Shown here: positions 27,320-42,134 of the stretch, in pieces | Layout: every line of letters begins with the position of its first letter | Position numbering within the stretch: position 1 is the first letter of the stretch | Virus record (IMG/VR): IMGVR_UViG_3300005326_000044 | Span: 28,720 to 92,719 of that record | Strand: one strand, 5' to 3' | From: a virus | DNA length: 64,000 bases | Made by a program: the position numbers and the translations under genes | The notes under the pieces: model-generated | Databases searched by the model: none | Seen by the model: the letters and a program-made list of their open reading frames with translations, nothing else | What the model was told of the DNA's origin: nothing

Positions 27320-28459
27320 ATGAAAGTCTATATGAAACAATACTTACAATCTCAACATTCCTGGGGAATTGTAGGTCAAAACATAGCAAGATCTTTGAGA
27401 GATGATTATCATCATGAAGTTGATCTTTGCACAACAAACCTCAGCAATACTCCTACTGTTGGACCGTTTCCCATTGATCTTTTACCTAATCTAAAATGTA
27501 AAAATTGCTCCGAAAAAATTAGGAGTCGTCCTTGTTTATTAGGAAGTAATTACGATATGAGCATTGCTTATACAGCTATGCATAACTGGAGAGATTATTT
27601 CAGTCAAGCAAAGAAGAATCGTTTTGGCATTTGGAATTATGATGGAACTCATATTCCTCCAGGTTGGGCTAAATTCTATAAGTTTGTTGATTTAGTTTTA
27701 CCTAGTAGTGAATATTCCAAGACAACATTTATTAGGAATGGTATTCCAGCTGAAGTCATAAGAGTTATTCCTCATGGTGCAGCAGAAGAATTTTTTTCCA
27801 GGCAAAATGTGTACAACATTGACATGGATAGAAAATACAAGTTCTTTGTAAATATTGCTCAGCCTCATACTCGCAAGAATATTCCTGGGCTTTTAGATGT
27901 ATGGGGTAAATCTTTTACCAATCGTGATGATGTTGTTTTGGTAGCAAAAGTGGCAATTAAAGAAAACGAAAAGAAAATGCCATTTGAGGTTTCGTGGATA
28001 GATGAACTTCTAAAAATGAAAAAGAGGTATAGAACTCATGCGCCTGTACTTGTTGTCAATGACTTTATCCCATACATTTCCGATTTATATCGTTCCTGTA
28101 ATATTGGATTGTCTTTATCACACGTTGAATGCTTCAACATGCCTGCCTTAGAATCCATGATTGTGGGAAACATTACTATAGCAAGCAACTACGGCGGTAG
28201 CGTTGACTTCATGAATACAAATAACTCGCTATTGGTAAATGGGAAAATAGGTCGAGCACCTGATAATTGCCAATATTGGATACCTAACGTATACGGTGAG
28301 ATGTTCTTTCCAGATACAAATCATGCGGTTGAAACGCTTCAACGTGTCGTAAAAGAATACGATGCATTGAAAGAACAGTTTGCTCCTGGGATTGAAAAGA
28401 TTAGACAAGAGTATACTTGGAAAAGTGTGGTAGGAAAGATTTTAGAATTAGCGAGGTAA
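27320..28459 (+). CDS. Glycosyltransferase, GT-B fold (GT4-like)
   Basis: PSSEYS, VIPHG, RKNIPGLL, ECFNMPALESM (ExFxxPxxE) motifs. Confidence 0.85.
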   Translation: MKVYMKQYLQSQHSWGIVGQNIARSLRDDYHHEVDLCTTNLSNTPTVGPFPIDLLPNLKCKNCSEKIRSRPCLLGSNYDMSIAYTAMHNWRDYFSQAKKNRFGIWNYDGTHIPPGWAKFYKFVDLVLPSSEYSKTTFIRNGIPAEVIRVIPHGAAEEFFSRQNVYNIDMDRKYKFFVNIAQPHTRKNIPGLLDVWGKSFTNRDDVVLVAKVAIKENEKKMPFEVSWIDELLKMKKRYRTHAPVLVVNDFIPYISDLYRSCNIGLSLSHVECFNMPALESMIVGNITIASNYGGSVDFMNTNNSLLVNGKIGRAPDNCQYWIPNVYGEMFFPDTNHAVETLQRVVKEYDALKEQFAPGIEKIRQEYTWKSVVGKILELAR

Positions 28460-28463
28460 AGCA

Positions 28464-29204
28464 ATGGTTCAAGTTTCAATTTTAACTCCAGTATATAATG
28501 CTTATAGGTTTACTGAGCAGTATCTAAAAGAACTTTCCAATCTTGGGCAAGAACACGAAATCATTCTCGTTGACAATGGTTCGACTGATAAAACAACAGA
28601 GATTCTAGCTAAATATGAAGAACCAACGTTCCATATTTGTCTTTCTGATACACTTTTTGTTTGGGCGATTAAGAATTCTGAAAACAAAGGCTTTGCCGTC
28701 GCTTCTAATCAGGCTTATCAAAAAGCAACTGGGGACATCATAATTTTTTTGAATAACGACATCAAAGTCCATCCAAACCATTTGCGTGATTGGACACAAA
28801 CGATTGTTCGCGCTATTTGGGACAATCCTGATGCGTTGGTTGGACCGACTGGTGGGTATGTGGATCCTCATACTTATAACTTCCAGTATCATTGTTCTTC
28901 TGAGAAACAAAAATTCAATTATCTAAGCGGCTGGTGTTTAGCGGGACGGAAAGTAACTTTTGAAAAATTACGAAAGGACAATGGAGAGGATGCCATTGGC
29001 CCCTTTTATGATTTCGGAACTTATTTTGAAGACACTTATATGGGTTTTCGGGCAACAAGCCTAGGAATCTCTATGAAAATTATTGATGTTCCAATTGTGC
29101 ATTTCGGAATGATGACATCTCGGCAAATGAACACTAATAAAATGTTTGCGGAAGCTAGGGTTCGGTTTATCAAGAAAATGAAGGAAAGTGGTTATGGACG
29201 ATAA
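28464..29204 (+). CDS. Glycosyltransferase family 2
   Basis: VSILTPVYN, EIILVDNGSTD, FLNND, YFED. Confidence 0.9.
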   Translation: MVQVSILTPVYNAYRFTEQYLKELSNLGQEHEIILVDNGSTDKTTEILAKYEEPTFHICLSDTLFVWAIKNSENKGFAVASNQAYQKATGDIIIFLNNDIKVHPNHLRDWTQTIVRAIWDNPDALVGPTGGYVDPHTYNFQYHCSSEKQKFNYLSGWCLAGRKVTFEKLRKDNGEDAIGPFYDFGTYFEDTYMGFRATSLGISMKIIDVPIVHFGMMTSRQMNTNKMFAEARVRFIKKMKESGYGR

Positions 29205-29349
29205 CAAAATTGTCAGGCAAGGTAGTCTAGCAGATCAGTATGTATCCATGGAAGAAAAAGATAACTTTTGGCTTGGATATCTCTGGGGTATTAGTACCGG
29301 ACTTCTGTTGATTGCAACTGTTTCTGCTCTAATCGTTTTTTGGAAATAA
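29194..29349 (+). CDS. Small membrane protein (51 aa, not in ORF track)
   Basis: MDDNKIVRQGSLADQYVSMEEKDNFWLGYLWGISTGLLLIATVSALIVFWK; fills the gap between two GT2 genes; C-terminal TM helix. Confidence 0.65.
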   Translation: MDDNKIVRQGSLADQYVSMEEKDNFWLGYLWGISTGLLLIATVSALIVFWK

Positions 29350-29353
29350 TCAG

Positions 29354-39552: not shown

Positions 39553-39553
39553 C

Positions 39554-40543
39554 ATGACAACAACCAGTGTTATTACAGGAATCACAGGACAAGACGGGTC
39601 TTATTTAGCTGAGTTATTGTTAGAGTCTGGGTATAAGGTTTATGGTATCATCAGACGTTCTAGTTCTTTCAACACAGCACGTATTGAAGGAATTTATGAA
39701 CATCCCAATCTAAAATTGATTTATGCTGATTTGTCTGATAGCTCAAGCGTTGGTCAAATTGTAGAAGATATAAAGCCAGATTATTTCTACAATCTTGGTG
39801 CGCAATCTCATGTTCGTGTAAGCTTTGATATTCCAGAATACACTTACGATATAACTGGAATAGGCGTTTTGAGATGTTTAGAAGCAATCCGGCGGTTTAG
39901 TCCTAAAACTAGATTCTATCAAGCGAGTTCCAGTGAGCTTTTTGGTTCAACTCCTCCTCCGCAAAATGAATTAACACCGTTTCATCCTAGAAGCCCATAT
40001 GGTGTTGCGAAACTTGCAGGATATTGGACGGTTGTAAATTATAGAGAAAGTTATGGAATATTTGGAAGTAATGGAATTTTATTCAACCATGAATCTCATA
40101 GGCGTGGAGAGACCTTTGTAACTAGAAAAATCACTCGTGCTGTTGGTCGTATTAAACATGGTTTACAACAAGAGCTTCGGCTTGGCAATCTTGAAGCAAA
40201 GAGAGATTGGGGACATTCTAAGGATTTTGTGGCGGCACAAAAGCTTATTCTTGAGCATGACCATCCAGATGATTTTGTAATTGCCACAGGGGAGTCTCAT
40301 TCTGTCCGTGAGTTTGCAGAGAAAGCTTTTTCTTATGCTGGGCTAGACCCATATAAATACATTGGGGTAGACCACAAATACTATAGACCAGCAGAAGTAG
40401 ATTATCTTTTGGGAGATGCCACTAAAGCTAGAAAGATTTTGGGTTGGGAGCCTCAAATTTCCTTTAGTAAACTTGTAGAAGAAATGGTTGAGTCTGATAT
40501 GGAGTTGGCTCGACGTGAAGCCCTTGTCGCAAACAAACTGTAA
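39554..40543 (+). CDS. gmd: GDP-mannose 4,6-dehydratase
   Basis: [65 protein letters not shown]. Confidence 0.97.
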
Positions 40544-40553
40544 AGGATTCGTC

Positions 40554-42134
40554 ATGAAAAAACTGGTTATACTATTAAATAGCAAGCATGTTTCTAAGGA
40601 AGAATTTGGGACATTAGAAAGTCTTTTAGCTCTTCCAGACACGTTTGTTATGGAACATTATAACGCAGCGTTGTTGCAAAGCTTATTTGCGCAAGGGGAG
40701 GTTGACGGAGTTGTATGTATTGGTGGCACAGGTAATTATAAAGATATTTTGTTAGCTAATAAGATCTGCCCAATTTATTTTCTTGATCATACTGGGTGCG
40801 ATGATTTCGTTACTTCTTTAGTTGATAGAGATAGACTTATTTTTTCTACACATCACATTAGAGAAATTGTTGATATTCATCAGAATTTTGTGCGCGCCGG
40901 TCTTTTGATTAATTCTGGTTGTCGATATGTTGAAGCTGGGTTTGTTTTCAGTAAAGACGGTAAACTGTGCAGAGCTATAGAAAAAAACGCACCAATACCA
41001 ATGCAGGTAGTGGAAGAAGCTTCAAACTTAGGATATGTTCCAAAGTTAAACAAATTTGGGGAAAGCGACAGGTATGTACTTTACAATATAGAAGAAATTC
41101 CGTTTGTAACCAGAGGAACGGAATGGTCGGTTGGACAGTCTGTTGCTATACTTAATTCGCTTCTTGATTTTGAGCTTTATTTACTGGAGCATTCATGTTC
41201 GTTACTAGATCCACATAGTAACAACTTTACATTTAGAAACTCTAAGTTTATTTATTTTGATTATGGATCGATTTCAAACAATATACACAAGTATGGCTTT
41301 TTAGCTCATGTAATGAATTTGGTTATTAAGCCTTGTTTTTACGGAAAGCCGATTGTTGATATTGAATCCTTGGAACGCGAATTTGAAAAATGGTATACCA
41401 AACATAATACTGAAAATCATGATGTAAATGAACTTAAAATGGCCATTGCTGAATTGCGATTGTTAGTGAACAGTATTGTTCTGAACGAGCCCAAATGTTG
41501 TTGGAACACGTATTGCCCCGAGATGTGTTTTACTTTAGAGCAGTTTGAGGCTAATAAATTTCAAAGAAAGAATAAGTACGATTATGTTTTAGATAAGTAT
41601 AAGACATATAAACCAAAGCGCGTTGTCGATTTGGGAGGAAATATTGGCTACTATTCTTTTATGGCTTCAACGCTTGGAGCGCAAGCTTTGGTGCTTGAGA
41701 ATAGGCATAGCGTTTTAGATGAAGGATTCAGTCTTGCTAAGAAACATAACATGAATGTTGATTTTGCATTAATTGACTTGTTCAATGTTGTCGAATCGGC
41801 GGTGAGCGAATATGTTACTAGCGATTCTATATACACTAGATTTCAAGGGGATTTTTGTCTGGCGTCAGCTATTACTCATCATCTATCCCATGGTGGTGAA
41901 AAAAGCTTAAGTTTTGAACGGCAAGTTGAAATGTTTAACAAGCTCACAACCAAGTATCTGTTGGTTGAATTTATTCCAAGCACAGATATTCACGTTAAAA
42001 CGTGGGGGATGCCGGAGAGTTACACCATGGATAACTATATGAAGGAATTGAATAAGTATTTTTCTATTCTTGAGATAGCGGATTCGGAACCTCTTCCGAG
42101 AAAATGGATCTTCTGCGAGAAGAAGTCCAAGTAG
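40554..42134 (+). CDS. NoeA-like protein: kinase-like region + C-terminal SAM methyltransferase
   Basis: IPFVT..EWS..LLDPHSNNF..FDYGS; VVDLGGNIGYYS, AITHHL, LLVEFI. Confidence 0.65.
   Translation: MKKLVILLNSKHVSKEEFGTLESLLALPDTFVMEHYNAALLQSLFAQGEVDGVVCIGGTGNYKDILLANKICPIYFLDHTGCDDFVTSLVDRDRLIFSTHHIREIVDIHQNFVRAGLLINSGCRYVEAGFVFSKDGKLCRAIEKNAPIPMQVVEEASNLGYVPKLNKFGESDRYVLYNIEEIPFVTRGTEWSVGQSVAILNSLLDFELYLLEHSCSLLDPHSNNFTFRNSKFIYFDYGSISNNIHKYGFLAHVMNLVIKPCFYGKPIVDIESLEREFEKWYTKHNTENHDVNELKMAIAELRLLVNSIVLNEPKCCWNTYCPEMCFTLEQFEANKFQRKNKYDYVLDKYKTYKPKRVVDLGGNIGYYSFMASTLGAQALVLENRHSVLDEGFSLAKKHNMNVDFALIDLFNVVESAVSEYVTSDSIYTRFQGDFCLASAITHHLSHGGEKSLSFERQVEMFNKLTTKYLLVEFIPSTDIHVKTWGMPESYTMDNYMKELNKYFSILEIADSEPLPRKWIFCEKKSK

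What the first reader, a model, noticed from the sequence alone, without database searches (positions are those of the whole stretch)
27320..42134. 15-kb phage-encoded glycan pathway (GDP-fucose, ~8 GT domains, methylation) abutting the tail operon
Seen: GT4, three stand-alone GT2, a GT2+CgeB-like fusion, a minus-strand GT-A, a GT9-like, gmd, fcl, HAD/nucleotidyltransferase, cupin, GDPD-like and two methyltransferases. No flippase, polymerase, ABC exporter or undecaprenyl-phosphate priming transferase is in the window, and the enzymes look soluble. Known: Gmd+Fcl make GDP-L-fucose; some mycobacteriophages and giant viruses glycosylate their virions. Inference: cytoplasmic assembly of a methylated, fucosylated oligosaccharide on virion proteins. 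It shares the GATATATA motif with the spike gene. Alternatives are DNA hypermodification or host-surface conversion.
Basis: partly seen in the sequence, partly recalled or inferred. Interest (0 to 1): 0.8.

Follow-up and report, generated by a model that had tools for sequence, protein, structure and literature searches.

The report
Huge-phage sugar-chain gene island beside tail
An uncultured groundwater phage of roughly 400 kb carries a real 15-kb set of soluble sugar-building genes next to its tail spike gene. It most likely sugar-coats the phage particle, but similar phage islands are already known and the target is not shown.

Summary
Window 27320-42134 encodes eight glycosyltransferase (GT) domains:
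- a weak GT4
- three GT2
- a GT9-like GT-B
- a GT2 + CgeB-like fusion
- a divergent minus-strand GT-A

It also encodes an intact Gmd and Fcl, a HAD/nucleotidyltransferase fusion, two methyltransferases, and weak cupin and GDPD-like ORFs. None has a membrane helix.

No priming transferase, flippase or integrase is found in this contig, which CheckV puts at 22% complete, or in a complete 480-kb relative.

The locus is composite. A GT4-led block directly after the spike gene is kept in all 7 clade members where that region is on the contig. In this phage a 14-kb module (30193-44142), ending in an HNH endonuclease gene, sits between the block's last GT2 and an RmlB-like gene. Relatives hold a gmd/fcl operon about 160 kb away (G001), or a different island with GT6, GT11 and C-methyltransferase at the same site (G004).

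Most likely reading (about 0.45): cytoplasmic glycosylation of virion proteins, as in chloroviruses and mycobacteriophages. Host-envelope remodelling (about 0.25) is not excluded. DNA glycosylation is unlikely, because the ThyA is canonical and no TET/JBP is found.

Comparable islands are published (cyanophage S-SCSM1), and this scan already holds 64 similar findings on other DNA. This is a new member of a known kind.

The parts
27163..27195 (+). Terminator-like hairpin plus U-run between the spike gene stop (27114) and the GT block
   Evidence: RNA fold -18.1 kcal/mol, z -3.4; sequence read
27305..27312 (+). GATATATA promoter-like motif 7 nt before the GT4 start
   Evidence: A GATATAG variant lies 8 nt before the G001 GT4 start. 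GATATAT is the most enriched upstream 7-mer in G001.
27320..28459 (+). GT4-type GT-B glycosyltransferase, the conserved anchor of the locus
   Evidence: Pfam Glycos_transf_1 E 6e-6, at the cut-off. Orthologues of 36-47% identity follow the spike gene in G001-G005 and G007.
28464..29204 (+). GT2, conserved core
   Evidence: Pfam E 5.5e-21; orthologues in G001, G002, G003, G005, G007
29354..30196 (+). GT2, conserved core; last gene before the inserted module
   Evidence: Pfam E 1.5e-6; orthologues of 36-38% identity in five relatives, next to the RmlB-like gene there
30193..30972 (+). GT2, first gene of the inserted module
   Evidence: Pfam E 3.8e-17; best G001 match lies in the distant gmd operon (166213-167055, 36%)
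30969..31916 (+). GDP-L-fucose synthase (Fcl/GMER)
   Evidence: NF047922 E 3.9e-122; 1bws E 8.6e-97 with catalytic motifs kept
31886..32938 (+). GT9-like GT-B glycosyltransferase with few homologues, mostly on phage-like contigs
   Evidence: Atlas; 9 homologues; AF2 pLDDT 82; Foldseek WaaC/WaaF/TibC; viral fold hits include phage RfaF-like proteins and giant-virus alpha-1,2-fucosyltransferases
32945..36028 (+). 1027-aa multidomain enzyme: orphan beta-rich N-terminal 400 aa + GT2 + CgeB-like GT-B
   Evidence: GT2 part nearest TarS/TarP; CgeB part 41% to a stand-alone G001/G002 gene; N-terminus has no homologues
36029..36655 (-). Divergent GT-A glycosyltransferase on the opposite strand
   Evidence: 1045 representatives at E<=1e-3; profile against PDB GT-A 8bz4 at 4.4e-5; 6 of 61 members hit PF00535 weakly; ATG at 36655
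36704..36711 (+). GATATATA motif in the 86-nt divergent intergenic region
36742..38121 (+). HAD (beta-phosphoglucomutase-like) + sugar-1-phosphate nucleotidyltransferase fusion
   Evidence: sugar specificity not resolved
38108..38428 (+). Small cupin (weak call), possibly a keto-sugar epimerase or isomerase
   Evidence: Cupin_2 E 0.0025, below cut-off
38418..38867 (+). 149-aa ORF whose N-terminus weakly resembles the start of glycerophosphodiesterases
   Evidence: E 0.03-0.07 over about 50 residues; no Pfam hit
38848..39552 (+). Class I SAM O-methyltransferase (Methyltransf_24)
   Evidence: E 4.2e-9, above cut-off. G001 has a gene of the same Pfam family next to its gmd, but no sequence match between the two was found (BLAST; phmmer).
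39554..40543 (+). GDP-mannose 4,6-dehydratase (Gmd)
   Evidence: TIGR01472 465.8 bits > 415; 62-65% identical to Gmd of G001, G002, G004, G006
40488..42134 (+). NoeA-like class I methyltransferase with an extra N-terminal domain (start probably 40515 or 40554)
   Evidence: Atlas features 0.95-0.96 and structure TM 0.66-0.73 to methyltransferase clusters; weak PDB MT hits
42138..42440 (-). HNH endonuclease-like gene near the right edge of the inserted module
   Evidence: weak Pfam HNH; blastp match to an ORF in the G002 locus L046 at 2.9e-10
42455..44142 (.). Two ORFs of unknown function (174 aa on minus, 397 aa on plus) with no match in G001 or in the G004 stretch examined
44171..45124 (+). 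RmlB-like SDR closing the conserved block; catalytic TDE and YxxxK motifs lost here
   Evidence: alignment with the intact G001 orthologue

Best explanation
The locus is the phage's own cytoplasmic glycan assembly line, and its product most likely ends up on virion proteins.

Shown by homology:
- The phage makes GDP-L-fucose from GDP-mannose with Gmd and Fcl.
- It carries a sugar-phosphate mutase/phosphatase fused to a nucleotidyltransferase, which can activate a further sugar.
- It has eight soluble GT domains and two SAM methyltransferases.

Shown by comparison:
- The locus has two layers. The first is an old core (GT4-GT2-GT2 ... RmlB-like) fixed directly after the tail spike gene across the clade.
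- The second is a swappable module. In this phage it brings gmd, fcl, five GT domains and the methyltransferases to the same site.

Inferred:
- The core enzymes start a glycan on exposed tail, baseplate, fibre or head proteins in the cytoplasm during assembly.
- The variable module extends and methylates that glycan, so related phages would wear different sugar coats.
- A candidate acceptor is the tyrosine of the DGY tripeptide, which is 8-fold enriched and confined to virion proteins. This is a lead only.
For: - Enzyme assignments.
- No TM helices in the cluster.
- No Bac_transf, WecA/MraY-type or Wzx family in G000, the complete 480-kb G001, or G002.
- No ORF with more than 4 TM-like segments in G001.
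- Spike followed by GT4 is kept 30-33 kb downstream of the sheath gene in 7 of 7 clade members where the region is on the contig. GT identities (36-47%) match those of the sheath, baseplate and spike.
- No tyrosine or serine integrase in the clade, so classical lysogenic conversion is unlikely.
- DGY occurs 31 times against 3.7 expected. All 31 are in virion proteins and the sequence contexts are unrelated.
- Resolved precedents for soluble, virus-encoded GT sets with GDP-fucose synthesis include cytoplasmic capsid glycosylation in PBCV-1 (PMC5408694). Mycobacteriophage capsids and tail tubes are glycosylated (Freeman 2023, as summarised in PMC12619734).
Against: - No chemistry or expression data exist.
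- Peripheral O-antigen and teichoic-acid GTs also lack TM helices, so solubility does not discriminate.
- The island sits at a module border where accessory genes collect, and the whole region is syntenic, so adjacency to the spike is weak evidence.
- A terminator-like hairpin separates it from the tail operon.
- The promoter-like motif also precedes non-structural genes, so timing is unknown.
- No GT here belongs to a family known to start protein glycosylation.
- In four relatives an Fpg/Nei DNA glycosylase gene lies inside the core block.
Confidence: 0.45

Rival explanations
1. Host-envelope remodelling during lytic infection. The soluble GTs act at the inner face of the membrane on host lipid-linked or teichoic-acid intermediates. 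Host priming, flipping and ligation enzymes export the altered glycan. This masks receptors against superinfection, or stops progeny from sticking to debris.
For: - The GT2 domain of the fusion is nearest to the teichoic-acid GTs TarS and prophage TarP.
- Published cyanophage clusters with gmd, fcl, fucosyltransferases and GTs are read this way (PMC9602691).
- Chloroviruses also make host-surface polysaccharides (PMC5408694).
- The island varies between relatives as O-antigen loci do, and it lies next to the receptor-binding genes.
Against: - No priming transferase, flippase, polymerase-like multi-TM protein or integrase occurs in the complete relative, so every membrane step would have to be borrowed.
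- The core GTs are old, vertically kept phage genes rather than recent host copies.
- The GT9-like protein has only 9 detectable homologues, and its nearest Atlas clusters are viral.
Confidence: 0.25
2. DNA hypermodification. The GTs build a glycan on a hydroxylated pyrimidine in phage DNA to block restriction.
For: - Phage DNA-glycan gene clusters use TarP-like GT-A and GT-B enzymes and can sit near structural genes (bioRxiv 10.1101/2023.12.21.572611).
- A ThyA gene lies 20 kb downstream.
- An Fpg/Nei gene sits inside the core block of G001, G002, G003 and G007.
Against: - The ThyA is a canonical thymidylate synthase: TIGR03284 294 bits against 108, with the PCH motif and the dUMP-specifying Asn in PFN.
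- It sits in a nucleotide-metabolism module and is absent from G001-G003, which keep the GT block.
- No Tet/JBP dioxygenase was found, although that search rang in no control genome either.
- Eight GT domains plus methylation far exceed the mono- to trisaccharide DNA modifications described in the papers read here (the polyarabinosylated cytidines of PMC13326640).
Confidence: 0.07
3. Another acceptor. The glycan could go on a non-virion phage or host protein, a small molecule, or a free or secreted oligosaccharide made during infection.
For: - No acceptor is defined by the sequence.
- The fusion enzyme has an orphan 400-aa N-terminal domain of unknown binding specificity.
- NoeA-like methyltransferases are named after a nodulation protein, and I recall them from nodulation-gene contexts, that is, lipo-oligosaccharide signalling. 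This is memory, not a tool result; one search gives only the cluster name.
Against: There is no lipid, acyl or export gene in the island. Clade-wide retention next to the virion module is not explained.
Confidence: 0.13

Closest known systems
Chlorovirus PBCV-1 autonomous capsid glycosylation (GMD, GMER, A064R, A111/114R; PMC5408694, PMC7826918)
   Same: Virus-encoded Gmd + Fcl; several soluble GTs without signal or TM; multidomain enzymes that join GT domains to an unknown domain, with methyltransferase activity in the system; glycan variation between strains.
   Different: PBCV-1 is a eukaryotic virus whose genes are scattered rather than clustered, and its glycan is N-linked to the capsid protein. 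Here the host is bacterial, the genes sit in one locus beside the tail genes, and the acceptor is unknown. No sequence orthology of the GTs was shown.
Mycobacteriophage virion O-glycosylation (Freeman et al. 2023, Cell Host Microbe; cited in PMC12619734 and PMC13313380; paper not held)
   Same: Phage-encoded soluble GTs (with a methyltransferase in some phages) modify the capsid and tail tube. This is the only experimentally shown case in tailed phages that I know of.
   Different: From memory, those phages have 2-4 GTs and no sugar-nucleotide synthesis genes, and the glycans sit on C-terminal extensions. Here there are eight GT domains plus a GDP-fucose route in a phage of about 400 kb. The nearest cultured-phage GT4 matches are Streptomyces phage GTs at 22-25% identity.
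Cyanomyophage 'LPS / cell-wall' clusters: S-SCSM1 ORF113-135, P-SSM2, S-SSM7 (PMC9602691)
   Same: A lytic phage carries gmd, fcl, several GTs and no export genes in one region. The function is untested.
   Different: The lineage is different (T4-like). Those clusters hold recognisable fucosyltransferases (NodZ, GT11, POFUT), whereas none is recognisable in this window. One (GT11) occurs in relative G004.
Bacterial O-antigen / capsule loci
   Same: Sugar-nucleotide genes plus a row of peripheral GTs and methyltransferases. Content is hypervariable at a fixed chromosomal site.
   Different: The defining priming transferase, flippase or ABC exporter, and polymerase are all missing.
Phage DNA glycan hypermodification clusters (Pyle et al., bioRxiv 10.1101/2023.12.21.572611; Lee et al., PMC13326640)
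   Same: Phage GT-A and GT-B enzymes related to TarP and LPS enzymes, sometimes near structural genes.
   Different: Those clusters are defined by a neighbouring 5mYOX or ThyA-type hydroxylase/hydroxymethylase. Here the ThyA is canonical and distant, and it is absent in relatives.

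Membership tests
GDP-L-fucose de novo pathway | GDP-mannose 4,6-dehydratase | tested here: met
   TIGR01472 equivalog 465.8 bits, cut-off 415
GDP-L-fucose de novo pathway | GDP-4-keto-6-deoxymannose epimerase/reductase with catalytic Ser-Tyr-Lys and Cys/His | tested here: met
   Full-length alignment to E. coli GMER 1bws, E 8.6e-97, motifs kept. The NCBIfam score of 407.5 is under the 500 cut-off.
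GDP-L-fucose de novo pathway | Own supply of GDP-mannose (mutase + guanylyltransferase) | tested here: inconclusive
   A HAD-bPGM-like + NTP_transferase fusion is present. The nearest structures are generic NDP-sugar pyrophosphorylases, and Man-1-P guanylyltransferase scores only E 2.6e-7.
Virus-encoded virion protein glycosylation (PBCV-1 / mycobacteriophage type) | Soluble virus-encoded GTs, no signal or TM, no lipid-carrier machinery | tested here: met
Virus-encoded virion protein glycosylation (PBCV-1 / mycobacteriophage type) | Glycan demonstrated on virion proteins | not testable with these tools
   Uncultured phage; the only run holding this stretch is a DNA run
Virus-encoded virion protein glycosylation (PBCV-1 / mycobacteriophage type) | Defined acceptor site on structural proteins | tested here: inconclusive
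   DGY 31 observed against 3.7 expected, only in virion proteins. No link to the GTs is shown.
Wzx/Wzy- or ABC-dependent surface polysaccharide locus | Initiating phosphoglycosyl transferase (Bac_transf or WecA/MraY type) | tested here: not met
   PF02397 and PF00953 are absent from G000, complete G001 and G002, while they ring in 9 and 12 of the 14 control genomes
Wzx/Wzy- or ABC-dependent surface polysaccharide locus | Flippase, polymerase or exporter (multi-pass membrane proteins) | tested here: not met
   PF01943 absent. No ORF has more than 4 TM-like segments in G000 or G001.
Phage DNA glycosyl-hypermodification cluster | Neighbouring 5mYOX/TET-JBP, or ThyA-type hydroxymethylase or hydroxylase, that creates the acceptor base | tested here: not met
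   No Tet_JBP was found, though no control genome rang for it either. The ThyA at 62064 is canonical with Asn in PFN, lies 20 kb away, and is absent in G001-G003.
GT9 heptosyltransferases (for ORF 31886) | GT-B fold closest to WaaC/WaaF | tested here: met
   Foldseek top hits 6dfe, 2gt1, 1psw, 3tov, E 1e-6 to 1e-5, TM about 0.5
GT9 heptosyltransferases (for ORF 31886) | Sequence membership (PF01075) and an ADP-heptose donor | tested here: not met
   No Pfam or NCBIfam hit. Viral fold neighbours also include alpha-1,2-fucosyltransferases, so this is GT9-like in fold only.
Lysogenic seroconversion cassette (Gtr type) | Temperate phage with integrase and membrane GtrA/GtrB-type proteins | tested here: not met
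   No PF00589 or PF07508 hit in five clade records. No membrane proteins in the locus.

The most novel reading that the evidence does not exclude
A whole clade of huge phages glycosylates the outside of its particles on a three-residue tag (Asp-Gly-Tyr, presumably on the tyrosine). A conserved spike-adjacent GT core would start the glycan, and a swappable island would finish it. Related phages would then carry different fucosylated, methylated 'glyco-serotypes', for example GT6 + GT11 chemistry in G004, perosamine-type genes in G001, and the set described here.
Probability: 0.2. Interest if true: 0.8.

Novelty: new member of a known kind. Interest (0 to 1): 0.45.

Why it matters
If the glycan is on the particle, sugar-coating of virions by phage-encoded enzymes would extend from small actinobacteriophages to huge environmental phages. 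A fixed genomic site would then diversify the coat, which bears on phage stability, host recognition and escape from binding or defence factors. The locus also gives a defined, clonable test set: the spike domain plus the three-gene core block, with or without the island. As it stands it is one more well-annotated example of a class already described in cyanophages and seen repeatedly in this scan.

Tried and rejected
- Megablast of the locus against cultured phages: no match.
- Related loci through the 1027-aa fusion: none. Relatives were reached through the sheath protein instead.
- N-terminal 400 aa of the fusion: no homologue in either length class. Single-sequence AF2 gave pLDDT 39.5 and is unusable.
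- Pfam at E<=5 for the 216-aa, 149-aa and 397-aa ORFs: nothing.
- Sigma-70 promoter and terminator consensus scans: at chance level.
- hhalign of the relatives' conserved 330-aa core protein against the GT9-like family: no relation.
- Local phmmer of the unassigned island proteins against the G001 proteome returned no rows. I did not check why, so I draw nothing from it.
- Sequencing runs: one groundwater DNA run holds the stretch and may be its source.
- The Freeman 2023 paper is not held.
- Complex prediction was not run. An enzyme with a transient substrate and eight candidate initiators was not worth the job.
- Streptomyces phage GT4 context (GT-GT-RNR-endolysin-portal) was uninformative.
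- The idea that the GT9-like protein is a TibC/Aah-type autotransporter heptosyltransferase was dropped. TibC ranks only 46th, and the only two invariant cysteines in the family alignment (C54, C170) cannot supply the several-cysteine metal site that I recall for TibC. That recollection was not checked here.

Full report
**What the DNA is**

- The window is the last 64 kb of a 92.7-kb IMG/VR viral contig that CheckV rates 22% complete, which implies a phage of roughly 400 kb.
- The one public run that holds it is a groundwater metagenome.
- Upstream of the finding lies a contractile-tail module. It has a sheath (contig 23218-25695), a Baseplate_J protein (window 13847-17125) and a row of giant ORFs up to 2335 aa.
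- The nearest cultured sheath is that of Bacillus phage G, at 25% identity.
- IMG/VR holds 32 related sheath loci, several on contigs of 200-480 kb. I used G001 (480,838 bp, 100% complete), G002, G003, G004, G005 and G007 for comparison.

**Observation check**

Pfam and NCBIfam confirm most calls outright:
- three stand-alone GT2
- the GT2 + CgeB-like fusion
- Gmd, above its equivalog cut-off
- Fcl
- the HAD + nucleotidyltransferase fusion
- a Methyltransf_24 enzyme

Fcl aligns end to end with E. coli GMER and keeps the catalytic motifs.

Three calls needed more work:
- The 350-aa ORF at 31886 has no family hit. With its nine homologues it folds confidently (pLDDT 82) into a GT-B whose best PDB neighbours are WaaC, WaaF and a GT9 protein. 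Its viral fold neighbours include phage RfaF-like proteins and giant-virus alpha-1,2-fucosyltransferases.
- The minus-strand 216-aa ORF belongs to a large unannotated family of 1045 representatives. The family profile matches GT-A structures at 4.4e-5.
- The 548-aa ORF is a NoeA-like class I methyltransferase by ESM Atlas features and structure.

The GT4, cupin and GDPD-like calls are weak. No ORF has a TM-like segment.

**Transcription signals**

- GATATATA occurs 7 times against 2.6 expected. Five of the six plus-strand copies lie 7-31 nt before gene starts: 7633, 27320, 36742, 44171 and 62960.
- GATATAT is also the most enriched 7-mer upstream of genes in G001, at 19 against 1.65 expected. 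A GATATAG variant lies 8 nt before the G001 GT4 start.
- It therefore looks like a clade-wide promoter element used by structural and non-structural genes alike. It says nothing specific about the spike gene.
- A strong hairpin followed by a U-run (27163-27195, -18.1 kcal/mol) lies between the spike gene and the GT4. The glycan genes therefore look like their own transcription units: 27320-36028, the divergent minus-strand gene, and 36742-42134.

**Anatomy from comparison**

- Gene-by-gene BLAST shows long synteny between this contig and G001, from the tail genes through tubulin, helicases and RNR.
- In G001, G002, G003 and G007 the order is spike, a 223-233-aa ORF, GT4, GT2, Fpg/Nei, a 330-aa unknown, GT2, RmlB-like, tubulin. 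G005 has the same order without the Fpg/Nei gene, and an 872-aa ORF in place of the small one.
- GT4 follows the spike 30-33 kb downstream of the sheath in all seven records where that region is on the contig.
- Its identities of 36-47% are like those of the sheath, baseplate and spike, so the core block looks vertically inherited.
- In this phage a 14-kb stretch (30193-44142) lies between the last core GT2 and the RmlB-like gene, which are neighbours in the other genomes. An HNH endonuclease gene and two ORFs without matches in the relatives compared occupy its right end.
- Four of its genes (GT2, Fcl, the CgeB-like domain, Gmd) have their best G001 and G002 matches in a separate 10-kb operon about 160 kb away. 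That operon also holds a DegT aminotransferase, a PglD-like acetyltransferase and two methyltransferases.
- G004 has the merged layout too, but with different content: a GT9-like gene, an 869-aa protein with an unknown N-terminus + GT2 + GT6, a GT11 fucosyltransferase, three methyltransferases including a sugar C-methyltransferase, and Gmd.
- The site is thus a fixed anchor with a hypervariable glycan module, much like an O-antigen locus.
- The RmlB-like gene that closes the block keeps TDE and YxxxK in G001 but has lost them here.

**What is missing**

- Searches for Bac_transf, WecA/MraY-type transferases and Wzx found nothing in this contig, in complete G001 or in G002. The control genomes rang for all three.
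- No ORF of G001 has more than four TM-like segments.
- No tyrosine or serine integrase is present.
- The phage therefore cannot prime, flip or polymerise a lipid-linked glycan by itself, and it looks lytic.

**Weighing the targets**

DNA:
- Known DNA-glycan clusters are defined by a neighbouring 5mYOX or ThyA-type enzyme that creates the acceptor base.
- The ThyA at 62064 scores as a true thymidylate synthase and keeps the PCH motif and the Asn of PFN.
- It lies in an RNR/PhoH module and is absent from G001-G003. No Tet_JBP was found, although that search rang in no control genome either.
- The Fpg/Nei gene inside the core block of four relatives is the only hint towards DNA.

Host envelope:
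- This cannot be excluded. Peripheral GTs of O-antigen and teichoic-acid pathways are also soluble.
- The fusion's GT2 domain is nearest to TarS and TarP.
- Cyanophage clusters of the same make-up are usually read this way (PMC9602691).

Virion:
- The resolved cases of soluble virus-encoded GT sets with GDP-fucose synthesis include cytoplasmic glycosylation of the particle, as in PBCV-1 (PMC5408694). Mycobacteriophage capsids and tail tubes are glycosylated (cited in PMC12619734).
- The core block is an old, conserved companion of the spike gene.
- The lineage lacks lysogeny genes.
- Following a lead from earlier notes of this scan, I recomputed the DGY count. It is the most enriched tripeptide in the structural proteins, at 31 against 3.7 expected. 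All 31 copies on the contig are in virion proteins, in unrelated sequence contexts, and the same holds in G001. This fits an acceptor tag, but nothing ties it to these enzymes.

I put virion glycosylation at about 0.45, envelope remodelling at 0.25, DNA at 0.07 and other acceptors at 0.13.

**Comparison and novelty**

- Phage islands with gmd, fcl, several GTs and no export genes are already published for T4-like cyanophages (PMC9602691).
- Virion glycosylation by phage GTs is established in mycobacteriophages.
- This scan already holds 64 findings of the same kind in at least 63 other genomes.
- What this case adds is the huge-phage lineage, the size (eight GT domains), and the clear two-layer architecture of a conserved spike-adjacent core plus a swappable module that has moved within the genome.
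- I rate it a new member of a known kind, of moderate interest. A higher-interest reading (a DGY-tagged, hypervariable virion glycan) remains possible but unproven.

Noticed in passing
window 44171-45124: The RmlB-like SDR that closes the conserved GT block has lost the TDE and YxxxK catalytic motifs here (the G004 orthologue has lost the Lys and the Thr/Glu), while the G001 orthologue keeps them. The loss coincides with the gmd island sitting next door.
   Followed up: partly
contig-wide; e.g. window 20731-20793 and 26883-26910: DGY is the most enriched tripeptide in the structural proteins (31 observed, 3.7 expected). It is confined to virion proteins in varied contexts, including tandem copies, and the same holds in G001 (82 observed, 22 expected genome-wide).
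   Followed up: partly
window 7616, 27155, 27305, 36704, 44153, 62945: GATATATA lies 7-31 nt before start codons, with no Shine-Dalgarno sequence between. GATATAT and GATATAG are the top upstream k-mers in the 480-kb relative as well. This is probably the clade's promoter, and it may give very short leaders.
   Followed up: partly
window 27150-27200: One motif copy is followed at once by a strong terminator-like hairpin (-18.1 kcal/mol) with no ORF. It could be a tiny transcript, or simply the tail-operon terminator.
   Followed up: no
L064:9822-10658 (G001), also G002, G003, G007: An Fpg/Nei DNA glycosylase gene sits tightly packed between the two core GT2 genes in four relatives. It is absent from this phage, G004 and G005.
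   Followed up: no
L074:7644-10973 (G004): The relative's island pairs a GT6 domain (the family of blood-group A/B transferases) with a GT11 alpha-1,2-fucosyltransferase and Gmd. This enzyme set could build histo-blood-group-like epitopes.
   Followed up: no
window 62064-63613: A canonical thymidylate synthase gene is followed, after a GATATATA site, by a gene that weakly resembles group I intron endonucleases.
   Followed up: no
window about 26000-30000: GC skew steps from about 0 across the tail module to +0.13 to +0.21 from the GT block onwards, although all large genes stay on the plus strand.
   Followed up: no
window 9898-11868: A 656-aa tail-module protein and its G001 orthologue each have four TM-like hydrophobic segments. 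They are among the few multi-segment ORFs found (one other small ORF on this contig, six others in G001).
   Followed up: no
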